Origin: Bdellovibrionaceae bacterium UBA3535
GTDB taxonomy: Bacteria > Bdellovibrionota > Bdellovibrionia > Bdellovibrionales > UBA840
Direction of reading: 5' to 3'
Assembly (NCBI GenBank): GCA_002376845.1
Contig: DFOS01000008.1
Coordinates: 3,583 to 67,582, forward strand
Length of the DNA stretch: 64,000 bases
Below the pieces are notes generated by a model. That model did not search any database. It saw only the letters and a program-made list of their open reading frames with translations, and was not told where the DNA came from. The position numbers and the translations under genes were made by a program. This document shows, one piece after another, positions 2,989-39,128 of the stretch; position 1 is the stretch's first letter; the number at the start of each line of letters is the position of its first letter.

Positions 2989-3917
2989 TACTTCAATAGA
3001 TAATAATCTCTTAGGAGCATGATTGTATAGTAATAGATAGGAGCGACAAAAATCAGTCGATCTATGCGGTCTATAATTCCACCTCTACCAAACACATAGG
3101 CTCCCACATCCTTGACCCCTAAATCGCGCCGTATCACACCCATGGATATATCACCTAAGCCGCCAATCAAACAGGCAATAATTCCAGAGGCTATCCAGTA
3201 GTAATGGTGATCCACTGGAAGAATGTTGCGTATTCCTCTAGCTAAAAGCATGGTACAGACAAAACCGATGATTAATCCTTCCAAACTTCTGCGTGGTGCG
3301 ATTTTTTCAATAAAGTTGATTTTGCCGTAAAGCTTCGACCAAGAAAGTATGATGGTATCATAAAATTCGGTAAGTAGAATGATATAGATAATATAGCGAG
3401 CGCCATGCTCCCATTTCGCAATAAAACCCATATGCAAAAAGGCCCAGCCAATAAATAAAAAGGCAACCAAGCACAGTGAGGTTTTTTGTATCATTTGTTT
3501 GAATTCATTTTTAAGCAGAGGAATCTGAAATAGTAGGCCAAATAATATCATGGGGAGTAGGTTGTATATCCAATAAAGTCCGTAGTGAATGCTTGAAATG
3601 CTTAGTACGGTGGCTATATAGGTGGGCCAAATAAATAATTTGTCGTTATAAACGCCAGTCATTTGAAAGAATTCGCGCATCGCAAGTAAGGCAATTATTC
3701 CAATGAATACAAGGGGAATGGGAGCGGCGAGTCCTAGAATCAAACAAACAATGGGGGCCGCAAATAGCCAAGAAAGATAAATCAGCCAAGCGGTTCGAAA
3801 ATTTAAGTTTTTACGGCGCAGAGGAAAAAGAGCTAGGCCGAAAATCAAAAGGTAAAAGAAAATACCAATGATTGCTTTTTGGTATACTGGATCTAGCCAT
3901 GCCCCCCATAGTTTCAT
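2988..3917 (-). CDS. cdsA: phosphatidate cytidylyltransferase (CDP-diglyceride synthase)
   Basis: Polytopic membrane protein with the C-terminal CTP-transferase signature region GDISMGVIRRDLGVKDVG...GGIIDRIDRLIF. Confidence 0.8.
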   Translation of the reverse strand: MKLWGAWLDPVYQKAIIGIFFYLLIFGLALFPLRRKNLNFRTAWLIYLSWLFAAPIVCLILGLAAPIPLVFIGIIALLAMREFFQMTGVYNDKLFIWPTYIATVLSISSIHYGLYWIYNLLPMILFGLLFQIPLLKNEFKQMIQKTSLCLVAFLFIGWAFLHMGFIAKWEHGARYIIYIILLTEFYDTIILSWSKLYGKINFIEKIAPRRSLEGLIIGFVCTMLLARGIRNILPVDHHYYWIASGIIACLIGGLGDISMGVIRRDLGVKDVGAYVFGRGGIIDRIDRLIFVAPIYYYTIMLLRDYYLLK

Positions 3918-32478: not shown

Positions 32479-34953
32479 TTATTTCATACCAAGATGCGCT
32501 TTGATGGCTTCAATCTCTTTTTTCAATTCGGCATTTTCTTTTTCTAAAGCTTTTACCTTATGACTCATTTCCACAACAGCCTTTAGTTGATAGAGCTGAA
32601 AACTCACGCCATAGCGAATACGCTTATAACCATTTTCATCGGTAACCACCATCTCAGGAAAAATCTTCTCGAGCTCCTGCGCAATCAAGCCTACTTCATG
32701 TCCTTCGCGTCCATGAATATGTTGGTTCTCTTTTTTCCAGTCGTATTCAACAACATTGATCTGCGATACTTTGTCGAGGGTGGATTCGATAGGGGAGATG
32801 TTTTCTTTGAAGCGGACGTCGGATACGCATGTACCTGTTTGTGGCGTCATACCATCATCAACTATACAATCATATACTTGCACATCATTGTTTGCTAACA
32901 AAGACATAGTTGGAAATCCATCAAGCCCATGTTTGAAAGTTATATCTCCATTATCCATTACGTTAATATCCCAATTTTCGGGACTAAAATTGTTTACTAG
33001 CTTTAAAGATGTTTCTGACTGACTTATTGTATGAACTTCAAGACTAGCAATTGGAGCATTAGTCCCAATCCCCAATTTACTGCCTGGATTGGGGAGAAAT
33101 AGTTCGCCAGTTGAAATGTCTCCTTCCATTAGTATGTTAGCACCACTTCCCAAAAGGAATCTATCATTCAGAGGGCCAGGCTCCGTATCATAGACATTAT
33201 ATCCTATAACAACATTATTGTTCCCGCTTGAAGCATCTCTATAGGCGTTAGCACCTATCAATACATTTCCAGATCCCTCAACGTTCCCGCCAGCTCTATA
33301 TCCTAAAGCAGTATTATTATTAAAAGTAGTTAAATATTGCAGAGAACCAAATCCTATAGCAGTATTCATCCCTCCTGATGTAATGGAGCTAATAGAGTTA
33401 CTGCCTAAAGCTGAGTTATAGCTTCCTGTAGTAATGGTACTGCCTGTTGCAAACCCAACACCAGTGTTATGGGTACCGGTGGGCAAATAATCAGTACCAA
33501 TAATCATGTTGTTCCCGCTGAATGAAGCGTCAGTTAGGCTGTCTATAGTGCCGCCGCCGCCACCAGGTGTACCACACACAAATTGATTCATGGCTGAATT
33601 CCATTGAAGAGCATCTGCGCCAGTACAATCAGTGCCTCCTCCTAGACCTCCAATTGAGGCGTCCATAAAAAGGTCATTAACAAAATTGTGAACAGATTGT
33701 TCGGAAGGTATCACATCTGTCGCCATCCCGAGCCCGCCAGTTTGGACACCAGTAATTGTGTTTCCGCCAATAGTCACATTTCCAGAAAATGTGGCGTTGC
33801 CGGTAGTAGTAAGCACACCAGTGAGACTTAGGTCGCCAGCTATATTAACAATCGATGCAGAATTAGAAATTATTGAATCTTCTAGGCCGTTTCCACCAGA
33901 ATTGATTCTAGGAATCTTACCCACAGTACCAGAGATTCCAGCTCCAGTTTGGTCCGTTTCGCAGCCAAATGCAGTGCCAGTCCAAGTAAGAAAACTACCT
34001 GCCTCACAAATGCCACTATCTATACTCAGGTTCGCAGCACCTGATGCCGCTCCTCCACTTAAGCCATTACCTGCAGTAACATCGGTGATATCGCCAACAC
34101 TAGAATCACATGCCCAAGTACTGGGTCCTTTCATTAATACTTGACCTGTAGTACACAAGGCATCATCTAGCTCTGCAAGACCTACTGTATCAGCTTGTAA
34201 AGTAGTTACACCGGTGTTACTCAATTCAATATCGCCGGTAATATCTACAGCTGAGGCTGTACCGGCATTGCCCACATATACATAGCTATCAGTTAGCGCT
34301 GTAGGCAAACCACCACCGCCAGTTTCATCTGTCTCACAGTCAAAGTTCGTACCATTCCAAGTAATTTTATTTCCGGTACCGGAACAGGAAGCAATATTAG
34401 AGGTATCAATAGAAGCGTTTAATACACCACCTGTTAATGAACCTACAATTCCATTTCCTGGAGTGAATGTGTGAGCAAAATCATTAGCTGATTTATCACC
34501 TAGTCTGTTTGCCATCATTGCCATGGGCACGGACTGAATGGGCTGTTTTGGTAGTGTCTCAATATTAGTTTGGTCATTGAAGGTAATTTCAATTAAAAAA
34601 GGTTCACCTGGGTTGTAAGAGGCCGAACAAGATGCTTCCCCTAATATTCCACTTTTGTAAAAGTAATTTTCTAAAAAACCGTTGCTAAAAGTGTTAGGAG
34701 AAGAGCCCTTACCAATATCTAGATAAAAAGCACCGTTACTTGTACTTAAATCATTGTCTAGATGCTGTTCTTCATATATTTTACAATCACCATCAATATC
34801 ATAAAGAGCAACGGTGATGTCGACATCAGGTGCTGTTATAGGGCTGCCACCTAAATCAGTTAAGACTCCGCTATAAGTGAATCCCCATTGTTGCTGTGCA
34901 TGGGCTGTGCCCATAAAAATAAAAAATAGAAAAAACGTACAAAGAGTTTTCAT
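32479..34953 (-). CDS. secreted tail-fibre-like protein with C-terminal peptidase-S74 intramolecular-chaperone domain
   Basis: Trimmed to the ATG at 34953 (signal MKTLCTFFLFFIFMGTAHA/QQ). Four Cys-bracketed C-x(n)-W-x(n)-C modules. Gly/Asn/Ser-rich Hep_Hag-like repeats (NSALGSNS...NTAIGFGS...NTALGYRAG...NVLIGANA...NVVIGYNV). C-terminus SDVRFKENI...VVEYDWK...GLIAQELEKIFPEMV followed by a coiled coil. Confidence 0.8.
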   Translation of the reverse strand: MKTLCTFFLFFIFMGTAHAQQQWGFTYSGVLTDLGGSPITAPDVDITVALYDIDGDCKIYEEQHLDNDLSTSNGAFYLDIGKGSSPNTFSNGFLENYFYKSGILGEASCSASYNPGEPFLIEITFNDQTNIETLPKQPIQSVPMAMMANRLGDKSANDFAHTFTPGNGIVGSLTGGVLNASIDTSNIASCSGTGNKITWNGTNFDCETDETGGGGLPTALTDSYVYVGNAGTASAVDITGDIELSNTGVTTLQADTVGLAELDDALCTTGQVLMKGPSTWACDSSVGDITDVTAGNGLSGGAASGAANLSIDSGICEAGSFLTWTGTAFGCETDQTGAGISGTVGKIPRINSGGNGLEDSIISNSASIVNIAGDLSLTGVLTTTGNATFSGNVTIGGNTITGVQTGGLGMATDVIPSEQSVHNFVNDLFMDASIGGLGGGTDCTGADALQWNSAMNQFVCGTPGGGGGTIDSLTDASFSGNNMIIGTDYLPTGTHNTGVGFATGSTITTGSYNSALGSNSISSITSGGMNTAIGFGSLQYLTTFNNNTALGYRAGGNVEGSGNVLIGANAYRDASSGNNNVVIGYNVYDTEPGPLNDRFLLGSGANILMEGDISTGELFLPNPGSKLGIGTNAPIASLEVHTISQSETSLKLVNNFSPENWDINVMDNGDITFKHGLDGFPTMSLLANNDVQVYDCIVDDGMTPQTGTCVSDVRFKENISPIESTLDKVSQINVVEYDWKKENQHIHGREGHEVGLIAQELEKIFPEMVVTDENGYKRIRYGVSFQLYQLKAVVEMSHKVKALEKENAELKKEIEAIKAHLGMK
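32482..32823 (-). other. predicted auto-cleaving intramolecular chaperone (peptidase S74) domain of the fibre protein
   Basis: The last 114 aa start at Ser750 of the 863-aa ORF numbering, within CVS-DVRFKENI. This matches the S-D-x-R-x-K cleavage motif of endosialidase-type tail-spike chaperone domains. Confidence 0.65.
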
Positions 34954-34954
34954 T

Positions 34955-35653
34955 TTATAACCCCTTAATTTTAAAATGTGTGGTGCCATCGACACCAGAT
35001 TTAGAAATACTTGATCCAATATTACTATTTTTAATACTAAAATCTGTGGAGCCAGGTACATTGCCACCACCAGCTAGAACTTCGCCATTGCGGGGCCCAC
35101 TAGGTGCGGTGCCATCATCCAAACACGTCGGAGGCGCCCCAATCGAGCTGGCCACATGATTTGCTAAACCCGGAAAGCTCGCATTGATTTCCACCGTGAT
35201 TTCCGGGGCATCAAAATTAATGCCATTGGCTTGTCCTATTAAATATACTTCATTAAGTTCACCATTATTTAAGCCAGCCGAGGCTCGGCAACCTGTGCCT
35301 AAAGGCTGTAAGTGTAAATATACTTTTATGTCGCGGGCAGCGCCTCTTGGAGCCAAGATTTCAATATTACCACCAGCGGGAACATAGCCTTGAAATAAAC
35401 CTTGCTCCGGTGAGCACGTATTCGCTGGAGCACTAATCAAATCGGGCGCCGTAATGTTTACGCCAAAGCAGTAATCATAGCCAACCGGAAAGGCGCTCAT
35501 GGAACCAACAACCTTACCTTGCAACTGTTGCTGAGTAGGAGCTTTGATCACGAGCTTAGATTTTGTTTCATCTTCAAAGAAACGTGAACAAGCTGTGGTG
35601 AAAACCAGCAGCGTAATAAGCCCTAAAGTTTTAAAAATACCAAAGATTTGCAT
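34955..35653 (-). CDS. hypothetical lipoprotein co-oriented with, and 1 nt upstream of, the fibre gene
   Basis: Signal plus lipobox LLVFTTAC. Cys-containing beta-rich body with a Gly-rich C-terminus. The start region reads GTG-TTG-ATG, and the ATG at 35653 was chosen. Confidence 0.55.
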   Translation of the reverse strand: MQIFGIFKTLGLITLLVFTTACSRFFEDETKSKLVIKAPTQQQLQGKVVGSMSAFPVGYDYCFGVNITAPDLISAPANTCSPEQGLFQGYVPAGGNIEILAPRGAARDIKVYLHLQPLGTGCRASAGLNNGELNEVYLIGQANGINFDAPEITVEINASFPGLANHVASSIGAPPTCLDDGTAPSGPRNGEVLAGGGNVPGSTDFSIKNSNIGSSISKSGVDGTTHFKIKGL

Positions 35654-36408: not shown

Positions 36409-36607
36409 GTGCCGATCTTAAAATTGCTTTTGCAATCTGGCTAGCAAAATTTTATTTTGCGTTATGTGCAAAAAAGATTGACGACTTTTTTGCGCCAGCA
36501 GTTTCTTGCCTGTTTGAAAAATAACGAATTCGGAATGATTTTTCTATCTCGATCATGTCTTTTTTCGTCAGCACCTTTGTTAATAGCTTCAAATGACATA
36601 TCTTATT

Positions 36608-37468
36608 TACTTTAAGCAGTGATAAAAAATGGCATTTAAAAACCTGTGTTATAAAAGATTTCGGAGGTACACATGCTGCAAGACTTGCAAAATTTGGTAT
36701 GGATGGAAAAGAAAATCACCGCCGAGATATTAGAAAAACTGCAAGTGGTCTACGACCAGAAAGACTTTGCTGGCTATAGCAATTTATTTGAATATATGGT
36801 CAAGGGCTTGGGCTATTCCGAGGCTACGGCCAGTTTGCGTCAATCCTGTTTGCGCCTACTACGTGAAATGCCGGAGCTAAAAGACAAAGTTAGAGAAGGC
36901 AAACTCAGCTATACAACCATAGCGCGCTCCTACAAATTCATCAAAGAGCAACCTACTGCGAAAAAGCGAGCGACTTTAAGCAGTCTCGAAAATCAATCCT
37001 CTCGAAAAGCTCTTGAGATATTAGAAAAGCAATCACCAGCTCCCGAGATTCAGGTGCAAAAGCGCCATTATCAAGATAGGGTGCGTTTAACGATCGATCT
37101 AAGCCACGAAGAGTATGAAAAACTGCAAAGACTGAAGGCTTTAAGCAGCCATCGCTACGGCTCTTATGAGGAGCTCATAAAATCTTTCATTGCTAAAGCG
37201 CATAAAAAATATGAAGACGATGACTTTAAGCAGTCACGCTCGAAAAACCCACGTTATATCTCGCAAAGATTACGCAACCATCTACTTAAGCAGGCAAATT
37301 ATCGCTGCCAAAAGGCGGGCTGCACGCAGGATCATCATTTGCAGATCGATCATATTCAGCCGGTAGCTAGGGGCGGGCAAGCCACAGCAGAGAATTTGCA
37401 GGTTTTATGCTTTTATCATAACCAACAAAAGGCTTGTCATTAAACCGTGCATTTTCTACTTTAAGCAG
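36608..37468 (+). repeat. dispersed array of six copies of CTTTAAGCAG (five exact, one CTTAAGCAG) in and around the HNH gene
   Basis: Exact 10-mers at 36610, 36974, 37139, 37224 and 37459, and a variant ending at 37293. The outermost copies extend to a 12-nt direct repeat TACTTTAAGCAG (36608-36619 and 37457-37468). Confidence 0.85.
36673..37443 (+). CDS. HNH endonuclease domain protein (long N-terminal helical domain, DUF222-like)
   Basis: C-terminal HNH core CQKAGC...[32 protein letters not shown] cggagg lies before the ATG. The N-terminal family assignment is tentative. Confidence 0.75.
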
Positions 37469-37481
37469 CATAGGAGGCAGT

Positions 37482-39128
37482 ATGCGTAATATTCACAGCC
37501 CGACGGGGGACAAATTACATTGCAAGGGTTGGTTGCAAGAGGCGGCCTATCGAATGATTCAAAACAATCTCGATCCTGCGGTAGCAGAAAAACCAGAAGA
37601 TCTTATCGTTTATGGCGGCATCGGAAAAGCCGCGCGCAATTGGCCTTCTTATGAAAAAATACTAGAAGCTTTAACTACTTTAGAAAATAACGAGACCTTA
37701 TTGGTTCAATCGGGAAAGCCCATCGGCATCATTCAAAGTCATGAAGATGCACCAAGAGTTTTGATTGCCAATTCCAATTTGGTGGGGAATTGGGCGAATT
37801 GGGATCATTTTCATGAACTCGATAAAAAGGGCCTGATGATGTATGGGCAAATGACCGCAGGTTCATGGATTTACATTGGCTCGCAAGGAATCGTGCAAGG
37901 CACTTATGAGACCTTTGTGGAATGTGGCAATCGCTATTTTGGTGGCGACTTGAAAGGCAAAACCATTCTGACAGCGGGCCTTGGCGGTATGGGCGGTGCG
38001 CAGCCGCTGGCAGGAGTTTTTGCAGGCGCCACCGTCTTGGCAGTAGAAATTGATCCCGAAAGAATTCAAAAGCGACTTGCCACACGCTATATCGATGAAG
38101 TAGCCGACAATCTTGATGATGCCCTTGCAAGGGTAGAGAAATACCGCAAAGCCGGAGAAGCTAAGTCCATTGCACTAGAAGGAAATATGGCGGATGTCAT
38201 CCACCAGTTGATTGATAAAGGCTTTCAACCCGACATTTTGACCGACCAAACTTCCGCCCACGATCCGCTCAACGGTTACATTCCCTCCGGTTACTCTTTA
38301 GAAGAGGCCGCCAAATTACGAAACGAAAACCCAGATCTTTACGAACAAAAATCCATCGCCTCCATGGCCAAACATGTAGAGGGCATGTTGAAAATGCAAA
38401 AGCAAGGCGCCAAAACCTTTGATTACGGCAACAACATTCGCGCCCGTGCGGTAGAGGGCGGCTGCGAAAATGCCTTTGATATTCCTGGCTTTGTGCCTGA
38501 GTTTATAAGACCTTTATTTTGTAAAGGCTCGGGGCCCTTTCGCTGGGTAGCACTCTCGGGTGATCCTGCTGACATTAAGGTTACGGATGATTGCTTGCGC
38601 GAGCTTTTTCCTGAAAAAAAGAATCTTCTCCGCTGGCTGGATATGGCCGAAGAGCGCATTGCCTATCAAGGTTTGCCGGCACGAATTTGTTGGCTCGAAT
38701 ATGGCGAGCGCGCCAAAGCGGGTTTGGCCTTCAATCAATTGGTGAAAGAGGGAAAAGTCAAAGCTCCGATTGTCATTGGCAGGGATCATTTGGATTGCGG
38801 ATCGGTTGCCTCTCCCAACCGAGAGACCGAGGCGATGAAAGATGGCTCGGATGCCGTAGCGGACTGGCCGATTTTAAATGCTTTAGTAAATACCGCTTGC
38901 GGCGCTACCTGGGTGAGTTTTCACCACGGCGGCGGTGTGGGCATGGGCTATTCGCTGCATGCTGGACAAGTCATCGTTGCCGACGGTAGCGAGAAAGCGG
39001 CGCAGAGATTGGAGCGTGTTTTAACCGCCGATCCTGGCATGGGCCTTTTTCGACATATTGATGCGGGCTACGAAGAGGCCGAAAAAATTGGTAAAGAGCG
39101 CGGCTTGAAATCTTTGTGGTACAAATAA
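37482..39128 (+). CDS. hutU: urocanate hydratase
   Basis: Trimmed to the ATG at 37482 (SD aggagg at 37471-37476). Motifs [14 protein letters not shown] and [18 protein letters not shown]. Confidence 0.95.

What the first reader, a model, noticed from the sequence alone, without database searches (positions are those of the whole stretch)
36608..37468. Six copies of CTTTAAGCAG in two reading frames and in non-coding DNA, flanking and filling an HNH gene upstream of hutU, with covarying hairpin-forming flanks
Seen:
- The exact 10-mer occurs at 36610, 36974, 37139, 37224 and 37459, with a one-base-shorter variant (CTTAAGCAG) at 37285-37293.
- A random 10-mer of this composition is expected about 0.1-0.2 times in 128 kb of two-strand sequence. 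Five exact copies fall within 860 bp.
- Inside the HNH ORF the copies are read in two frames: L-S-S at 36974 and 37139, and F-K-Q or L-K-Q at 37224 and 37285. The conservation is therefore at the nucleic-acid level.
- The first copy is 54 nt upstream of the HNH start. The last is 16 nt after its stop and 3 nt before the hutU SD.
- These two outer copies extend to a 12-nt direct repeat TACTTTAAGCAG spaced 849 nt apart.
- Flanking bases covary: gaC..Gtc, ggC..Gcc, tgaC..Gtca, taC..Gtg. Several copies could therefore fold as 3-4-bp stems presenting a constant loop TTTAAGCA. At 36966-36987 the stem extends to cgag-c-gac/gtc-t-ctcg.

Inference, with alternatives open:
1. Target-site or att-like repeats marking an ~850-bp mobile HNH cassette inserted in front of hutU.
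2. Recognition sites (dsDNA, or ssDNA/RNA hairpins) for the HNH protein or another binding protein.
3. A genome-wide motif that happens to be concentrated here.

I did not scan the whole window exhaustively. The only other near match I noticed is TTTAAGCAG at 3510-3518.
Basis: seen in the sequence. Interest (0 to 1): 0.65.

Follow-up and report, generated by a model that had tools for sequence, protein, structure and literature searches.

The report
Conserved 12-base motif in HNH cassette
A small mobile nuclease gene sitting in front of hutU carries many same-strand copies of one 12-14-base word, kept by selection on the DNA letters themselves; the word is most likely a docking site for a protein, probably the nuclease itself, but only four related cassettes have it and its function is untested.

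Summary
CTTTAAGCAG occurs exactly five times, all on the + strand, at 36610-37468. A one-base-shorter variant lies at 37285. There is no other exact copy in the 64 kb, against about 0.15 expected by chance.

The motif is real and longer than reported: consensus TACTTTAAGCAGTY. It is shared by the three closest homologous HNH cassettes (70-80% aa identity), each in an unrelated genomic context. Selection acts on the nucleotides:
- The two longest invariant runs in the four-way alignment are motif copies.
- Three of the five fully conserved 4-/6-fold codons in the gene lie in one copy.

Strong sites run 19:0 sense to antisense.

- Hairpin covariation does not survive in the orthologous copies.
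- The outer repeats are not cassette boundaries, because the 36610 copy lies inside a family-conserved leader of about 200 nt.
- The motif is not genome-wide.

More distant homologues (55% identity or less), including genomes with more than 20 paralogues, have no comparable repeated word.

Best reading (about 0.4): strand-polar cis-acting protein-binding DNA sites of a mobile helical-domain+HNH cassette, probably bound by its own product. The main rivals are an RNA-level signal and a host factor. This is moderately interesting: an unexplained, clade-restricted feature of an uncharacterised Bdellovibrionota HNH family.

The parts
36459..36672 (+). Conserved non-coding leader of the HNH cassette. 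It contains GCGTTATGTGCA (36459-36470), the family-invariant TTGAC plus T-run (36478-36490), an A-rich tract, an extended -10 (TG at 36647-36648, TATAAA at 36650-36655) and the SD GGAGG (36663-36667).
   Evidence: The four-way alignment and the 23-sequence family alignment show TTGAC invariant in 23/23 and the TG..TA of the -10 invariant. No consensus RNA structure was found. Two independent short contigs end at 36472.
36608..36621 (+). Motif copy U1 (TACTTTAAGCAGTG), non-coding, 53 nt before the ATG and about 30 nt upstream of the -10.
   Evidence: PWM 20.3 bits. The homologous position holds CTTTAAGCGA in L001 and is degenerate in L086 and L088.
36673..37443 (+). HNH endonuclease gene, 256 aa. 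It has an N-terminal seven-helix domain (weak DUF222 similarity), a beta-hairpin plus two helices, and a C-terminal zinc-ribbon HNH domain.
   Evidence: Pfam HNH E=2.9e-7; DUF222 14 bits, below the 24.4 cutoff. AlphaFold model pLDDT 91. Only the HNH domain matches solved structures. Homologues are Bdellovibrionota, often multi-copy.
36972..36985 (+). Motif copy G1 (GACTTTAAGCAGTC), read as T-L-S-S, codons 101-104.
   Evidence: ACTTTAAGCA is invariant in all four clade members. Codons ACT, TTA and AGC are identical in all four. Gene-wide, only 5 of 64 4-/6-fold columns are.
37137..37150 (+). Motif copy G2 (GGCTTTAAGCAGCC), read as A-L-S-S. It replaces the family-conserved A-L-K-S.
   Evidence: Present in 3 of 4 clade members; L088 has GCCCTACGCAGT.
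37222..37235 (+). Motif copy G3 (GACTTTAAGCAGTC), read in another frame as F-K-Q.
   Evidence: ACTTTAAGCAG is the longest invariant run (11 nt) in the 1,475-column four-way alignment.
37283..37294 (+). One-base-shorter variant G4 (TACTTAAGCAGG), read as L-L-K-Q. It occurs only in this window.
   Evidence: Sister cassettes have CTACTGAAACAA, TTGCTCAAACAA and TTACTGCATAAA here, so this copy is not conserved.
37457..37470 (+). Motif copy D1 (TACTTTAAGCAGCA), non-coding, starting 16 nt after the HNH stop and ending 3 nt before the hutU SD.
   Evidence: 18.8 bits. No exact counterpart follows the stop in L001 or L086. L088 has only GCTTTAAGAT about 45 nt downstream.
37482..39128 (+). hutU (urocanase), immediately downstream. 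No terminator lies between it and the HNH gene.

Best explanation
The repeated word, consensus TACTTTAAGCAGTY, is a cis-acting recognition sequence belonging to a small mobile cassette of about 1 kb. The cassette is a leader of about 200 nt plus a 256-aa protein with a helical N-terminal domain and an HNH nuclease domain.

I propose that a sequence-specific protein reads it on DNA. The most likely reader is the cassette's own product, through its helical N-terminal domain. The strict same-strand orientation implies a polar function. One possibility is placing the HNH active site on one particular strand at each site, that is, nicking that promotes recombination or copying of the cassette. Another is directional occupancy that throttles expression of a potentially toxic nuclease. 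The site about 30 nt upstream of the -10, together with the inverted near-copy over the start codon in the three sister cassettes, would suit autoregulation.

Shown here: the motif exists, is clade-conserved, is under nucleotide-level selection, is strand-polar, occurs in coding and non-coding DNA, is not genome-wide, and does not depend on a hairpin.

For: 1. Cluster far beyond chance and unique in the window.

2. The same motif sits at the same three in-gene positions, plus 1-5 upstream non-coding positions, in the three closest cassettes (L001, L086, L088; 70-80% aa identity). Each lies in a different genomic neighbourhood.

3. Nucleotide-level purifying selection.
- The two longest invariant runs of the four-way alignment are motif copies, 11 and 10 nt, with the next longest at 7.
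- T-L-S of G1 account for 3 of the only 5 fully conserved 4-/6-fold codons among 64 (hypergeometric p about 2e-4, my calculation).
- Copy G2 exists because a family-conserved Lys became Ser.

4. The copies arose by point substitution, not insertion. The protein alignment has no indels at these sites. Upstream copies sit at non-homologous positions in different cassettes. Both facts point to repeated selection for copy number.

5. Evidence favouring DNA over RNA.
- Strong copies lie 259-417 nt upstream of the ATG in L001 and L086, beyond the family-conserved -10 and the TTGAC box.
- An inverted near-copy, ATGCTTAAAGAA, is conserved over the start codon in 3 of 4 cassettes. One exact antisense copy lies inside the L001 gene.

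6. The protein has a confident helical N-terminal domain fused to an intact HNH domain and has no other recognisable partner. No neighbouring gene is conserved that could encode a different binder.
Against: - There is no binding or cleavage data.
- More distant members of the same protein family, including genomes with 4 to more than 20 paralogues, carry no comparable multi-copy word. Self-recognition sites are therefore not a family-wide property.
- The residues of the putative recognition helix are largely family-invariant, whereas the motif is clade-specific.
- The family-invariant TTGAC box is an equally good or better candidate for what the protein binds.
- A 19:0 sense bias among strong sites is what an RNA or single-strand signal would give. 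It is unusual for a simple operator.
- Site spacing is irregular: 364, 165, 85, 61 and 174 nt.
- Only four cassettes carry the motif, and one of them (L088) has an in-frame stop.
Confidence: 0.4

Rival explanations
1. The motif is an RNA-level signal in the HNH transcript. Candidates are a binding site for an RNA-binding protein or sRNA, or a recognition site for a sequence-specific endoribonuclease, read as a linear word or a tiny AC...GU-closed loop.
For: - All 19 strong sites in the four cassettes are on the sense strand.
- The constant flanks A...T allow a 2-bp closure.
- Window copies fold into 3-4-bp stems in 4 of 5 cases, against about 14% expected for 3 or more pairs.
- No terminator separates the HNH gene from hutU, so copy D1 would be on the same transcript.
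Against: - Stems are not conserved. Orthologous copies have 1-3 pairs, and one-sided changes are uncompensated.
- Strong copies lie 259-417 nt upstream of the ATG in L001 and L086, upstream of every conserved promoter-like element.
- Near-copies on the antisense strand are conserved over the start codon in 3 of 4 cassettes.
- Rfam finds nothing.
- RNAalifold finds no leader structure.
Confidence: 0.2
2. The motif is bound by a host-lineage factor, not by the HNH protein. Examples would be a regulator or silencer that keeps an acquired nuclease gene quiet, or a recombinase arm-type site.
For: - The motif is restricted to one shallow clade from marine and saline samples, not to the protein family.
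- Pairs of the carriers co-occur in the same samples: P0001 and P0002 in Tara assemblies, P0003 and P0004 in ERZ27315534. That is compatible with a shared host background.
- Dispersed 10-nt direct repeats over several hundred bp resemble integrase arm-type sites (my knowledge of lambda and L5 attP).
Against: - No other cluster or exact copy occurs in 64 kb + 12.7 kb of host DNA.
- No conserved neighbouring regulator or recombinase gene is present.
- The cassettes sit in unrelated contexts.
Confidence: 0.15
3. The copies are mobility scars or targets. They would be target-site or att-like repeats, or an 'address' next to which new cassettes land, with the outer pair TACTTTAAGCAG delimiting an insertion in front of hutU.
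For: - A 12-nt direct repeat extending to 15 of 17 matching bases flanks the ORF.
- The cassette is clearly not ancestral at this locus. A relative has tag there.
- The L086 leader contains a decayed copy of a cassette start (-312 matching +3..+26), preceded by two motif copies. This suggests cassettes pile up next to each other.
- Two independent assemblies break at 36472, at the edge of the leader.
Against: - The left copy is about 135-150 nt inside the family-conserved leader, so it is not at the boundary.
- Three or four further copies are internal and under selection.
- Sister cassettes lack a copy after the stop.
- No recombinase is present.
- No empty site was found. All contigs with identical GST or hutU carry the cassette.
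Confidence: 0.12
4. There is no function. The cluster is chance, a by-product of amino-acid conservation and codon bias, or a genome-wide word that happens to be concentrated here.
For: - Parts of two copies overlap family-conserved peptides: KAL(K/S)SH and LLKQA.
- The variant G4 copy is window-specific.
Against: - Expected number is about 0.15 per window. Five exact copies are seen, and 14 exact sense copies across four cassettes.
- The motif is read in two frames and in non-coding DNA.
- Synonymous positions are frozen only in the motif.
- Sub-words occur at Markov expectation elsewhere.
Confidence: 0.03

Closest known systems
Cis sites embedded in the gene of the protein that binds them: ori-lambda iterons inside gene O, the P1 pac hexamers inside pacA, and parS inside spo0J (from established knowledge, not tested here)
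   Same: - A short DNA word is repeated in direct orientation inside the coding sequence.
- It is maintained by nucleotide-level selection on top of the protein code.
- It is physically linked to the gene of a DNA-acting protein.
   Different: - Those sites are tightly clustered, with regular spacing over 100-160 bp. Here the copies are spread irregularly over 0.9-1.2 kb and also lie up to about 420 nt upstream.
- No replication, packaging or partition machinery is present.
- The binder is unproven.
Autorepression by a homing endonuclease: I-TevI binding an operator at its own promoter (from established knowledge)
   Same: - A free-standing or mobile endonuclease has a separate DNA-binding module.
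- A recognition-like site lies next to its own promoter. Here that is U1 about 30 nt upstream of the -10, plus the inverted near-copy over the ATG in sister cassettes.
   Different: - I-TevI is a GIY-YIG enzyme with a single operator.
- Here there are 5-10 sites, most of them inside the ORF and all co-oriented.
- No target or homing site is known.
DUF222/HNH 'REP13E12-type' multi-copy endonuclease genes of Actinobacteria and the multi-copy HNH genes of BALOs (PMC13147790 reports 10-13 HNH genes at strain-specific sites in Peredibacter)
   Same: - Same domain order: a helical N-terminal domain with weak DUF222 similarity, then a C-terminal HNH domain.
- Many divergent copies per genome in variable locations.
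   Different: - The Pfam DUF222 score is below threshold.
- None of the other Bdellovibrionota clades examined carries a repeated 12-mer.
- The mobility mechanism of these families is itself unknown.
Hairpin-type repeats recognised on single strands: REP/BIME, IS200/IS605 ends, attC
   Same: Strand-specific short repeats that, in this window, can form small stem-loops.
   Different: - Those families conserve structure with variable sequence. Here the sequence is conserved and the structure is not.
- No Y1/HUH transposase or integron integrase is present.

Membership tests
Target-site duplication / att-type direct repeats bounding an insertion | The repeat copies lie exactly at the two ends of the inserted segment. 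| tested here: not met
   The left copy (36608) is about 135-150 nt inside a leader homologous across the family. Further copies are internal.
Target-site duplication / att-type direct repeats bounding an insertion | An empty site in relatives carries a single copy. | tested here: inconclusive
   No empty haplotype was found. The nearest syntenic relative is too distant (48% GST identity) and has a tag gene at the position.
Structured single-strand repeat (REP, IS200/IS605-end, attC-like hairpin) | The stem is maintained by compensatory changes across homologous copies. | tested here: not met
   Orthologous copies have 1-3 contiguous pairs, against 3-4 in the window. Changes are one-sided.
Genome-wide oriented motif (DUS/USS, Chi, KOPS) | Over-representation throughout the chromosome. 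| tested here: not met
   No exact copy in the other 63 kb. Sub-words are at Markov expectation. None occurs in the L001 flanks. The whole genome was not available.
Iterons / operator arrays | Multiple conserved copies of one word near or in the gene of a DNA-binding protein. | tested here: met
   5-10 copies per cassette, conserved in four cassettes.
Iterons / operator arrays | Regular or helically phased spacing, with demonstrated protein binding. | tested here: not met
   Spacings are 364, 165, 85, 61 and 174 nt. TRF finds no array. Binding is not testable with these tools.
Free-standing HNH (homing-type) endonuclease gene | Intact HNH/zinc-ribbon catalytic motif. | tested here: met
   Pfam HNH E=2.9e-7. 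The invariant C212, D226-H227, N241, C246, H249-N250 are present, and C217 is nearly invariant. The model is confident. The best structural match is the Gme HNH nicking endonuclease 4h9d.
Free-standing HNH (homing-type) endonuclease gene | Presence/absence polymorphism and variable location between related genomes. | tested here: met
   Every homologue sits in a different context. Tag occupies the site in L090. No literal empty allele was seen.
Free-standing HNH (homing-type) endonuclease gene | Cleavage of a cognate target site. | not testable with these tools
   Needs biochemistry.
IscB / HEARO (omega-RNA guided HNH nucleases) | RuvC and PLMP domains plus an adjacent structured omega RNA. 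| tested here: not met
   Only the HNH segment matches the NCBIfam IscB model (35 bits against a cutoff of 175). There is no Rfam hit and no conserved leader structure.
Pfam DUF222 | Score above the gathering threshold. | tested here: not met
   14.2 bits against 24.4. Some distant homologues do carry PF02720.

The most novel reading that the evidence does not exclude
The cassette represents an undescribed kind of HNH-driven selfish element of Bdellovibrionota. Its nuclease reads a 12-14-nt 'address' word, seeded in one orientation through its own gene and leader. It nicks one strand there, and this drives recombination-dependent copying of the cassette next to other copies of the word, including decayed cassettes. 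This would explain the multi-copy, context-hopping HNH genes of predatory bacteria.
Probability: 0.12. Interest if true: 0.75.

Novelty: new variant of a known kind. Interest (0 to 1): 0.45.

Why it matters
Multi-copy genes with a helical N-terminal domain and an HNH domain (DUF222-like) are among the commonest unexplained 'HNH endonuclease' annotations in Bdellovibrionota and Actinobacteria. Nobody knows how they move or what they cut.

This clade offers a rare handle. It has a short, strongly selected, strand-polar DNA word physically tied to the gene, and that word can be put straight into binding and nicking assays.

If the protein reads it, the result gives the first recognition sequence for this family and a model for its regulation or mobility. 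If it does not, the motif points to an unknown host factor or RNA-level control acting on an acquired nuclease gene.

It is also a clean example of nucleotide-level selection overriding a conserved amino acid, where family-conserved K became S.

Tried and rejected
- Rfam on the locus, the whole window and the sister loci gave nothing. The window has no tRNAs.
- RNAalifold on 23 leaders predicted zero pairs.
- The hairpin idea is rejected on orthologue comparison.
- A scan of viral contigs for two motif copies 20-50 nt apart gave one hit. It is a tandem coding repeat (TTLSSTLSVTG) in a phage tail-fibre gene and is irrelevant.
- tblastn against phages matched only the generic HNH domain. PADLOC and PHROGs likewise gave only generic HNH or REase matches.
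- The empty-site search failed to find any cassette-free haplotype, using the GST and hutU proteins. Population copies of the locus are identical.
- A search for an analogous multi-copy word in other clades (bin16, SI075, UBA6776, L006) found none.
- I tested whether the family's left-end box (ACTAARCRTTGCGGC) is a copy of an internal gene segment. It is significant only in L025, and the inverted HNH 3' remnants in UBA6776 look like one ancestral rearrangement. I did not use this as evidence.
- The sigma-70 scan found no promoter using the invariant TTGAC as a -35, because no -10 lies at 16-19 nt.
- Tetranucleotide comparison could not show whether P0001 and P0002 come from one genome.
- Considered from memory and dropped for lack of fit: LexA, IHF, sigma-28, sigma-54, CtrA, KorB, frameshift and Chi readings.
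Full report
**Observation**

The locus reads as the first stage described.
- CTTTAAGCAG occurs exactly at 36610, 36974, 37139, 37224 and 37459, all on the + strand. The shortened CTTAAGCAG is at 37285. No other exact copy occurs on either strand of the 64 kb.
- Base composition predicts about 0.15 exact copies per window.
- One-mismatch matches elsewhere are at chance level.
- Outside the locus, every 6-8-nt sub-word of the motif sits at its Markov expectation, for example TTTAAGC 15 seen against 12 expected.

The ORF at 36673-37443 encodes a 256-aa protein with a C-terminal HNH domain (Pfam E=2.9e-7) and a weak, sub-threshold DUF222 match in the N-terminal half. The in-gene copies are read as T-L-S-S, A-L-S-S, F-K-Q and L-K-Q, in two frames. 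The outer copies extend to TACTTTAAGCAG, 849 nt apart. The last copy ends 3 nt before the hutU Shine-Dalgarno sequence. hutU ATG is at 37482.

**What the gene is**

The protein belongs to a Bdellovibrionota family. Several MAGs carry it in many divergent copies:
- more than 20 loci in UBA6776, many at contig ends;
- at least 4 in 'bin.16';
- several in SI075 and in Bdellovibrio isolates.

Paralogues are only 65-80% identical in DNA. A published comparison of Peredibacter genomes likewise reports 10-13 HNH genes at partly strain-specific sites (PMC13147790).

The AlphaFold model is confident (pLDDT 91). It shows a seven-helix N-terminal domain, a beta-hairpin, two long helices, then the HNH zinc-ribbon domain. 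Only the HNH domain resembles solved structures; the best match is the Gme HNH nicking endonuclease. It is not IscB-like beyond the HNH segment. PADLOC and PHROGs give only generic HNH matches.

I aligned 23 upstream regions from five clades. They share:
- an invariant TTGAC followed by a T-run about 195-215 nt before the ATG (window 36478-36490);
- an A-rich tract;
- an extended -10 (TG-n-TAnnnT; window TG at 36647-36648, TATAAA at 36650-36655);
- a Shine-Dalgarno sequence.

The unit is therefore leader plus gene. No consensus RNA structure is predicted in the leader, and Rfam finds nothing.

The motif copy at 36610 lies inside this leader, about 135-150 nt from its left edge. It cannot be a boundary repeat.

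Two independent short contigs from other assemblies both end at window position 36472, at the edge of the TTGAC box. This is compatible with a graph branch at the cassette's left end.

No cassette-free haplotype was found. Every contig with the identical GST or hutU protein also carries the HNH gene, and the copies are identical in sequence. A distant relative with GST-hutU-hutI synteny has a tag glycosylase gene where the HNH sits here. The position is therefore variable, but no nucleotide-level empty site is available.

**The motif in relatives**

Only three other cassettes are close relatives: P0002 (L001), P0003 (L086) and P0004 (L088), at 80, 73 and 71% aa identity. Each lies in an unrelated neighbourhood.

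All three carry the motif:
- at the homologous G1 and G3 positions in all four cassettes;
- at G2 in three of four;
- at one to five upstream non-coding positions that are not homologous between cassettes: -63 here; -66, -259 and -298 (plus weaker copies at -206 and -347) in L001; -339 and -417 in L086; -129 in L088.

Off-diagonal BLAST matches among the four elements consist only of the motif plus 2-4 flanking bases. This gives the consensus TACTTTAAGCAGTY.

A 14-nt weight matrix finds 19 strong sites (above 15 bits) in the four cassettes, all on the sense strand. In the remaining 63 kb of the window it finds only one unrelated 15.4-bit hit.

Weaker inverted near-copies exist:
- ATGCTTAAAGAA over the start codon in three of the four cassettes;
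- one exact antisense copy inside the L001 gene.

Copy D1 after the stop codon has no exact counterpart in the sister cassettes. The shortened G4 copy is window-specific.

**Selection acts on nucleotides**

In the four-way alignment, 51% of gene columns are invariant. The two longest invariant runs are ACTTTAAGCAG at G3 (11 nt) and ACTTTAAGCA at G1 (10 nt). The next longest run is 7 nt.

Sixty-four alignment columns hold an identical 4- or 6-fold-degenerate amino acid. Only five keep the same codon in all four genes. Three of those five are the T, L and S of G1; drawing all three by chance has p of about 2e-4.

G2 exists because the family-conserved KALKSH became KALSSH in this clade. There are no indels at the sites, so the copies were created by substitution.

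These points, together with the turnover of upstream copies, argue for selection on the number of copies of the word.

**The hairpin idea**

In the window, four of five copies have 3-4 contiguous pairs closing a TTTAAGCA loop. About 14% of random flanks would give 3 or more pairs. In the orthologous and other copies of the sister cassettes the stems shrink to 1-2 pairs, with one at 3 using a G-T pair. Changes are one-sided. What looked like covariation is mostly the constant A...T that is part of the motif. Structure is not what is conserved.

**Distant relatives lack it**

In cassettes at 55% identity or less, TTTAAGC is not enriched. No other 7-10-mer reaches more than about 2 copies per element on average, against 4.75 for CTTTAAGC in the window clade. 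The multi-copy word is therefore a peculiarity of one shallow clade, not a property of the family.

**Interpretation**

The data exclude three readings:
- chance or a codon artefact;
- a genome-wide word;
- a conserved hairpin.

They also show that the outer pair does not delimit the insertion. What remains is a cis-acting word that is selected, strand-polar and physically tied to the cassette.

I favour recognition on DNA by a protein, for three reasons:
- Strong copies lie up to 417 nt upstream of the ATG, beyond every conserved promoter-like element.
- Inverted near-copies are conserved at the start codon.
- No structure is maintained.

The obvious candidate reader is the cassette's own product, because no other gene travels with the motif and the protein has a separate helical domain in front of the nuclease. 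A polar arrangement would make sense if each bound protein presents its HNH site to one particular strand (nicking), or if occupancy is directional. The copy about 30 nt upstream of the -10 and the start-codon copy would suit autoregulation of a potentially toxic nuclease.

All of this is inference, and I put it at about 0.4. The rivals:
- RNA-level signal (0.2). The 19:0 sense bias is its best argument.
- Host-lineage factor (0.15). This fits the clade restriction. P0001 and P0002, and P0003 and P0004, occur in the same samples.
- Mobility-related 'address' or scar (0.12). The L086 leader holds a decayed cassette start preceded by two motif copies, so cassettes may land next to each other.

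**Comparison with known systems**

Functionally, the nearest precedents are cis sites embedded in the gene of the protein that uses them (ori-lambda iterons in O, P1 pac in pacA, parS in spo0J) and the I-TevI autorepression operator. This rests on my own knowledge. The locus is not a member of any of these:
- spacing is irregular;
- there is no replication, packaging or partition context;
- binding is untested.

It fails the defining tests for TSD/att repeats, for REP or IS200-type hairpins, for DUS/Chi-type genome-wide motifs and for IscB/HEARO.

**Verdict**

It is partly wrong on the hairpin covariation, the boundary repeats and the genome-wide option. Novelty is a new variant of a known kind. 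Interest is moderate, because the motif gives a concrete, testable handle on an uncharacterised and widespread HNH family. Only four cassettes show it, and the mechanism is unproven.

Noticed in passing
window 36478-36490 and the homologous positions in L001, L006-L031, L086, L088: An invariant TTGAC followed by a T-run lies about 195-215 nt upstream of the ATG in 23/23 cassettes from five clades. No -10 hexamer lies 16-19 nt downstream, so it does not look like a sigma-70 promoter. It is a family-wide cis element of unknown role, and a candidate binding site for the protein.
   Followed up: partly
L007-L031, about 255-275 nt upstream of the ATG (e.g. L031 3729-3743): A conserved box, ACTAARCRTTGCGGC, marks the left edge of homology in the UBA6776 and bin.16 cassettes. 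L025 carries an inverted copy just after the stop codon, and the 3' flank of L027 reads as one by eye. The variant ACTAAGCAT resembles the window motif ACTTTAAGCAG.
   Followed up: partly
L031 3560-3723; L024 3680-3722; also the L019 and L023 leaders: An inverted remnant of the HNH 3' end, starting exactly at the codons L-R-N-D-V-L, abuts the left-end box at the junction ...CGTAG|TGT|CTAC.... It is probably one ancestral rearrangement inherited by a sub-clade of paralogues.
   Followed up: partly
L013-L047 (UBA6776), 100-800 nt on either side of the HNH genes: The HNH genes of this MAG are embedded among several families of 70-150-nt repeats that occur in both orientations up- and downstream. 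Many HNH loci sit at contig ends.
   Followed up: no
L088 1283-1285 (and L089): The fourth motif-bearing cassette has an in-frame TAG in the HNH domain, yet homology continues beyond it. It is probably a pseudogene, seen in two independent assemblies, that still keeps its motif copies.
   Followed up: partly
L086 1649-1670 versus 1963-1986: The leader contains a decayed copy of a cassette's first 24 nt: GCTTAAAAACTTCAAAACTAGT against GCTTAAAGAACTGCAAAACCTAGT. This suggests a degraded tandem cassette upstream of the intact one.
   Followed up: partly
window 36472: Two independent short metagenomic contigs (L094, L096) end at exactly this base, inside GTGCAAA|AAAGATTGACG. This may be an assembly-graph branch at the left end of the cassette.
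   Followed up: partly
window 37457-37484: TACTTTAAGCAGCATAGGAGGCAGTATG places a motif copy directly in front of the hutU ribosome-binding site. From memory, it resembles the phage T7 gene 10 leader AACTTTAAGAAGGAG ('epsilon' enhancer). No terminator separates the HNH gene from hutU, so hutU may depend on cassette transcription.
   Followed up: no
window 36724-36737 and 37015-37028: An exact 14-nt repeat, GAGATATTAGAAAA, occurs in the same frame both times and encodes E-I-L-E-K. The peptide is also repeated in the sister cassettes, so this looks like an amino-acid-level internal repeat.
   Followed up: no
L001 5654-5761: Upstream motif variants (CTTTAAGCGA / CTTTAAGCGC) are embedded in a local duplication of about 39-45 nt: ATTGCGAGAGGATYACTTTAAGCGMTTCA, and TTTAAGCnCnnCAGTAATTG.
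   Followed up: partly
window 32479-35070 (- strand): A large ORF of 863 aa whose counterpart on other contigs carries a Peptidase_S74 (tail-spike/fibre chaperone) domain. It lies two genes from the cassette, and hutH lies beyond it. Gene order around the hut genes differs from the relative L090.
   Followed up: no
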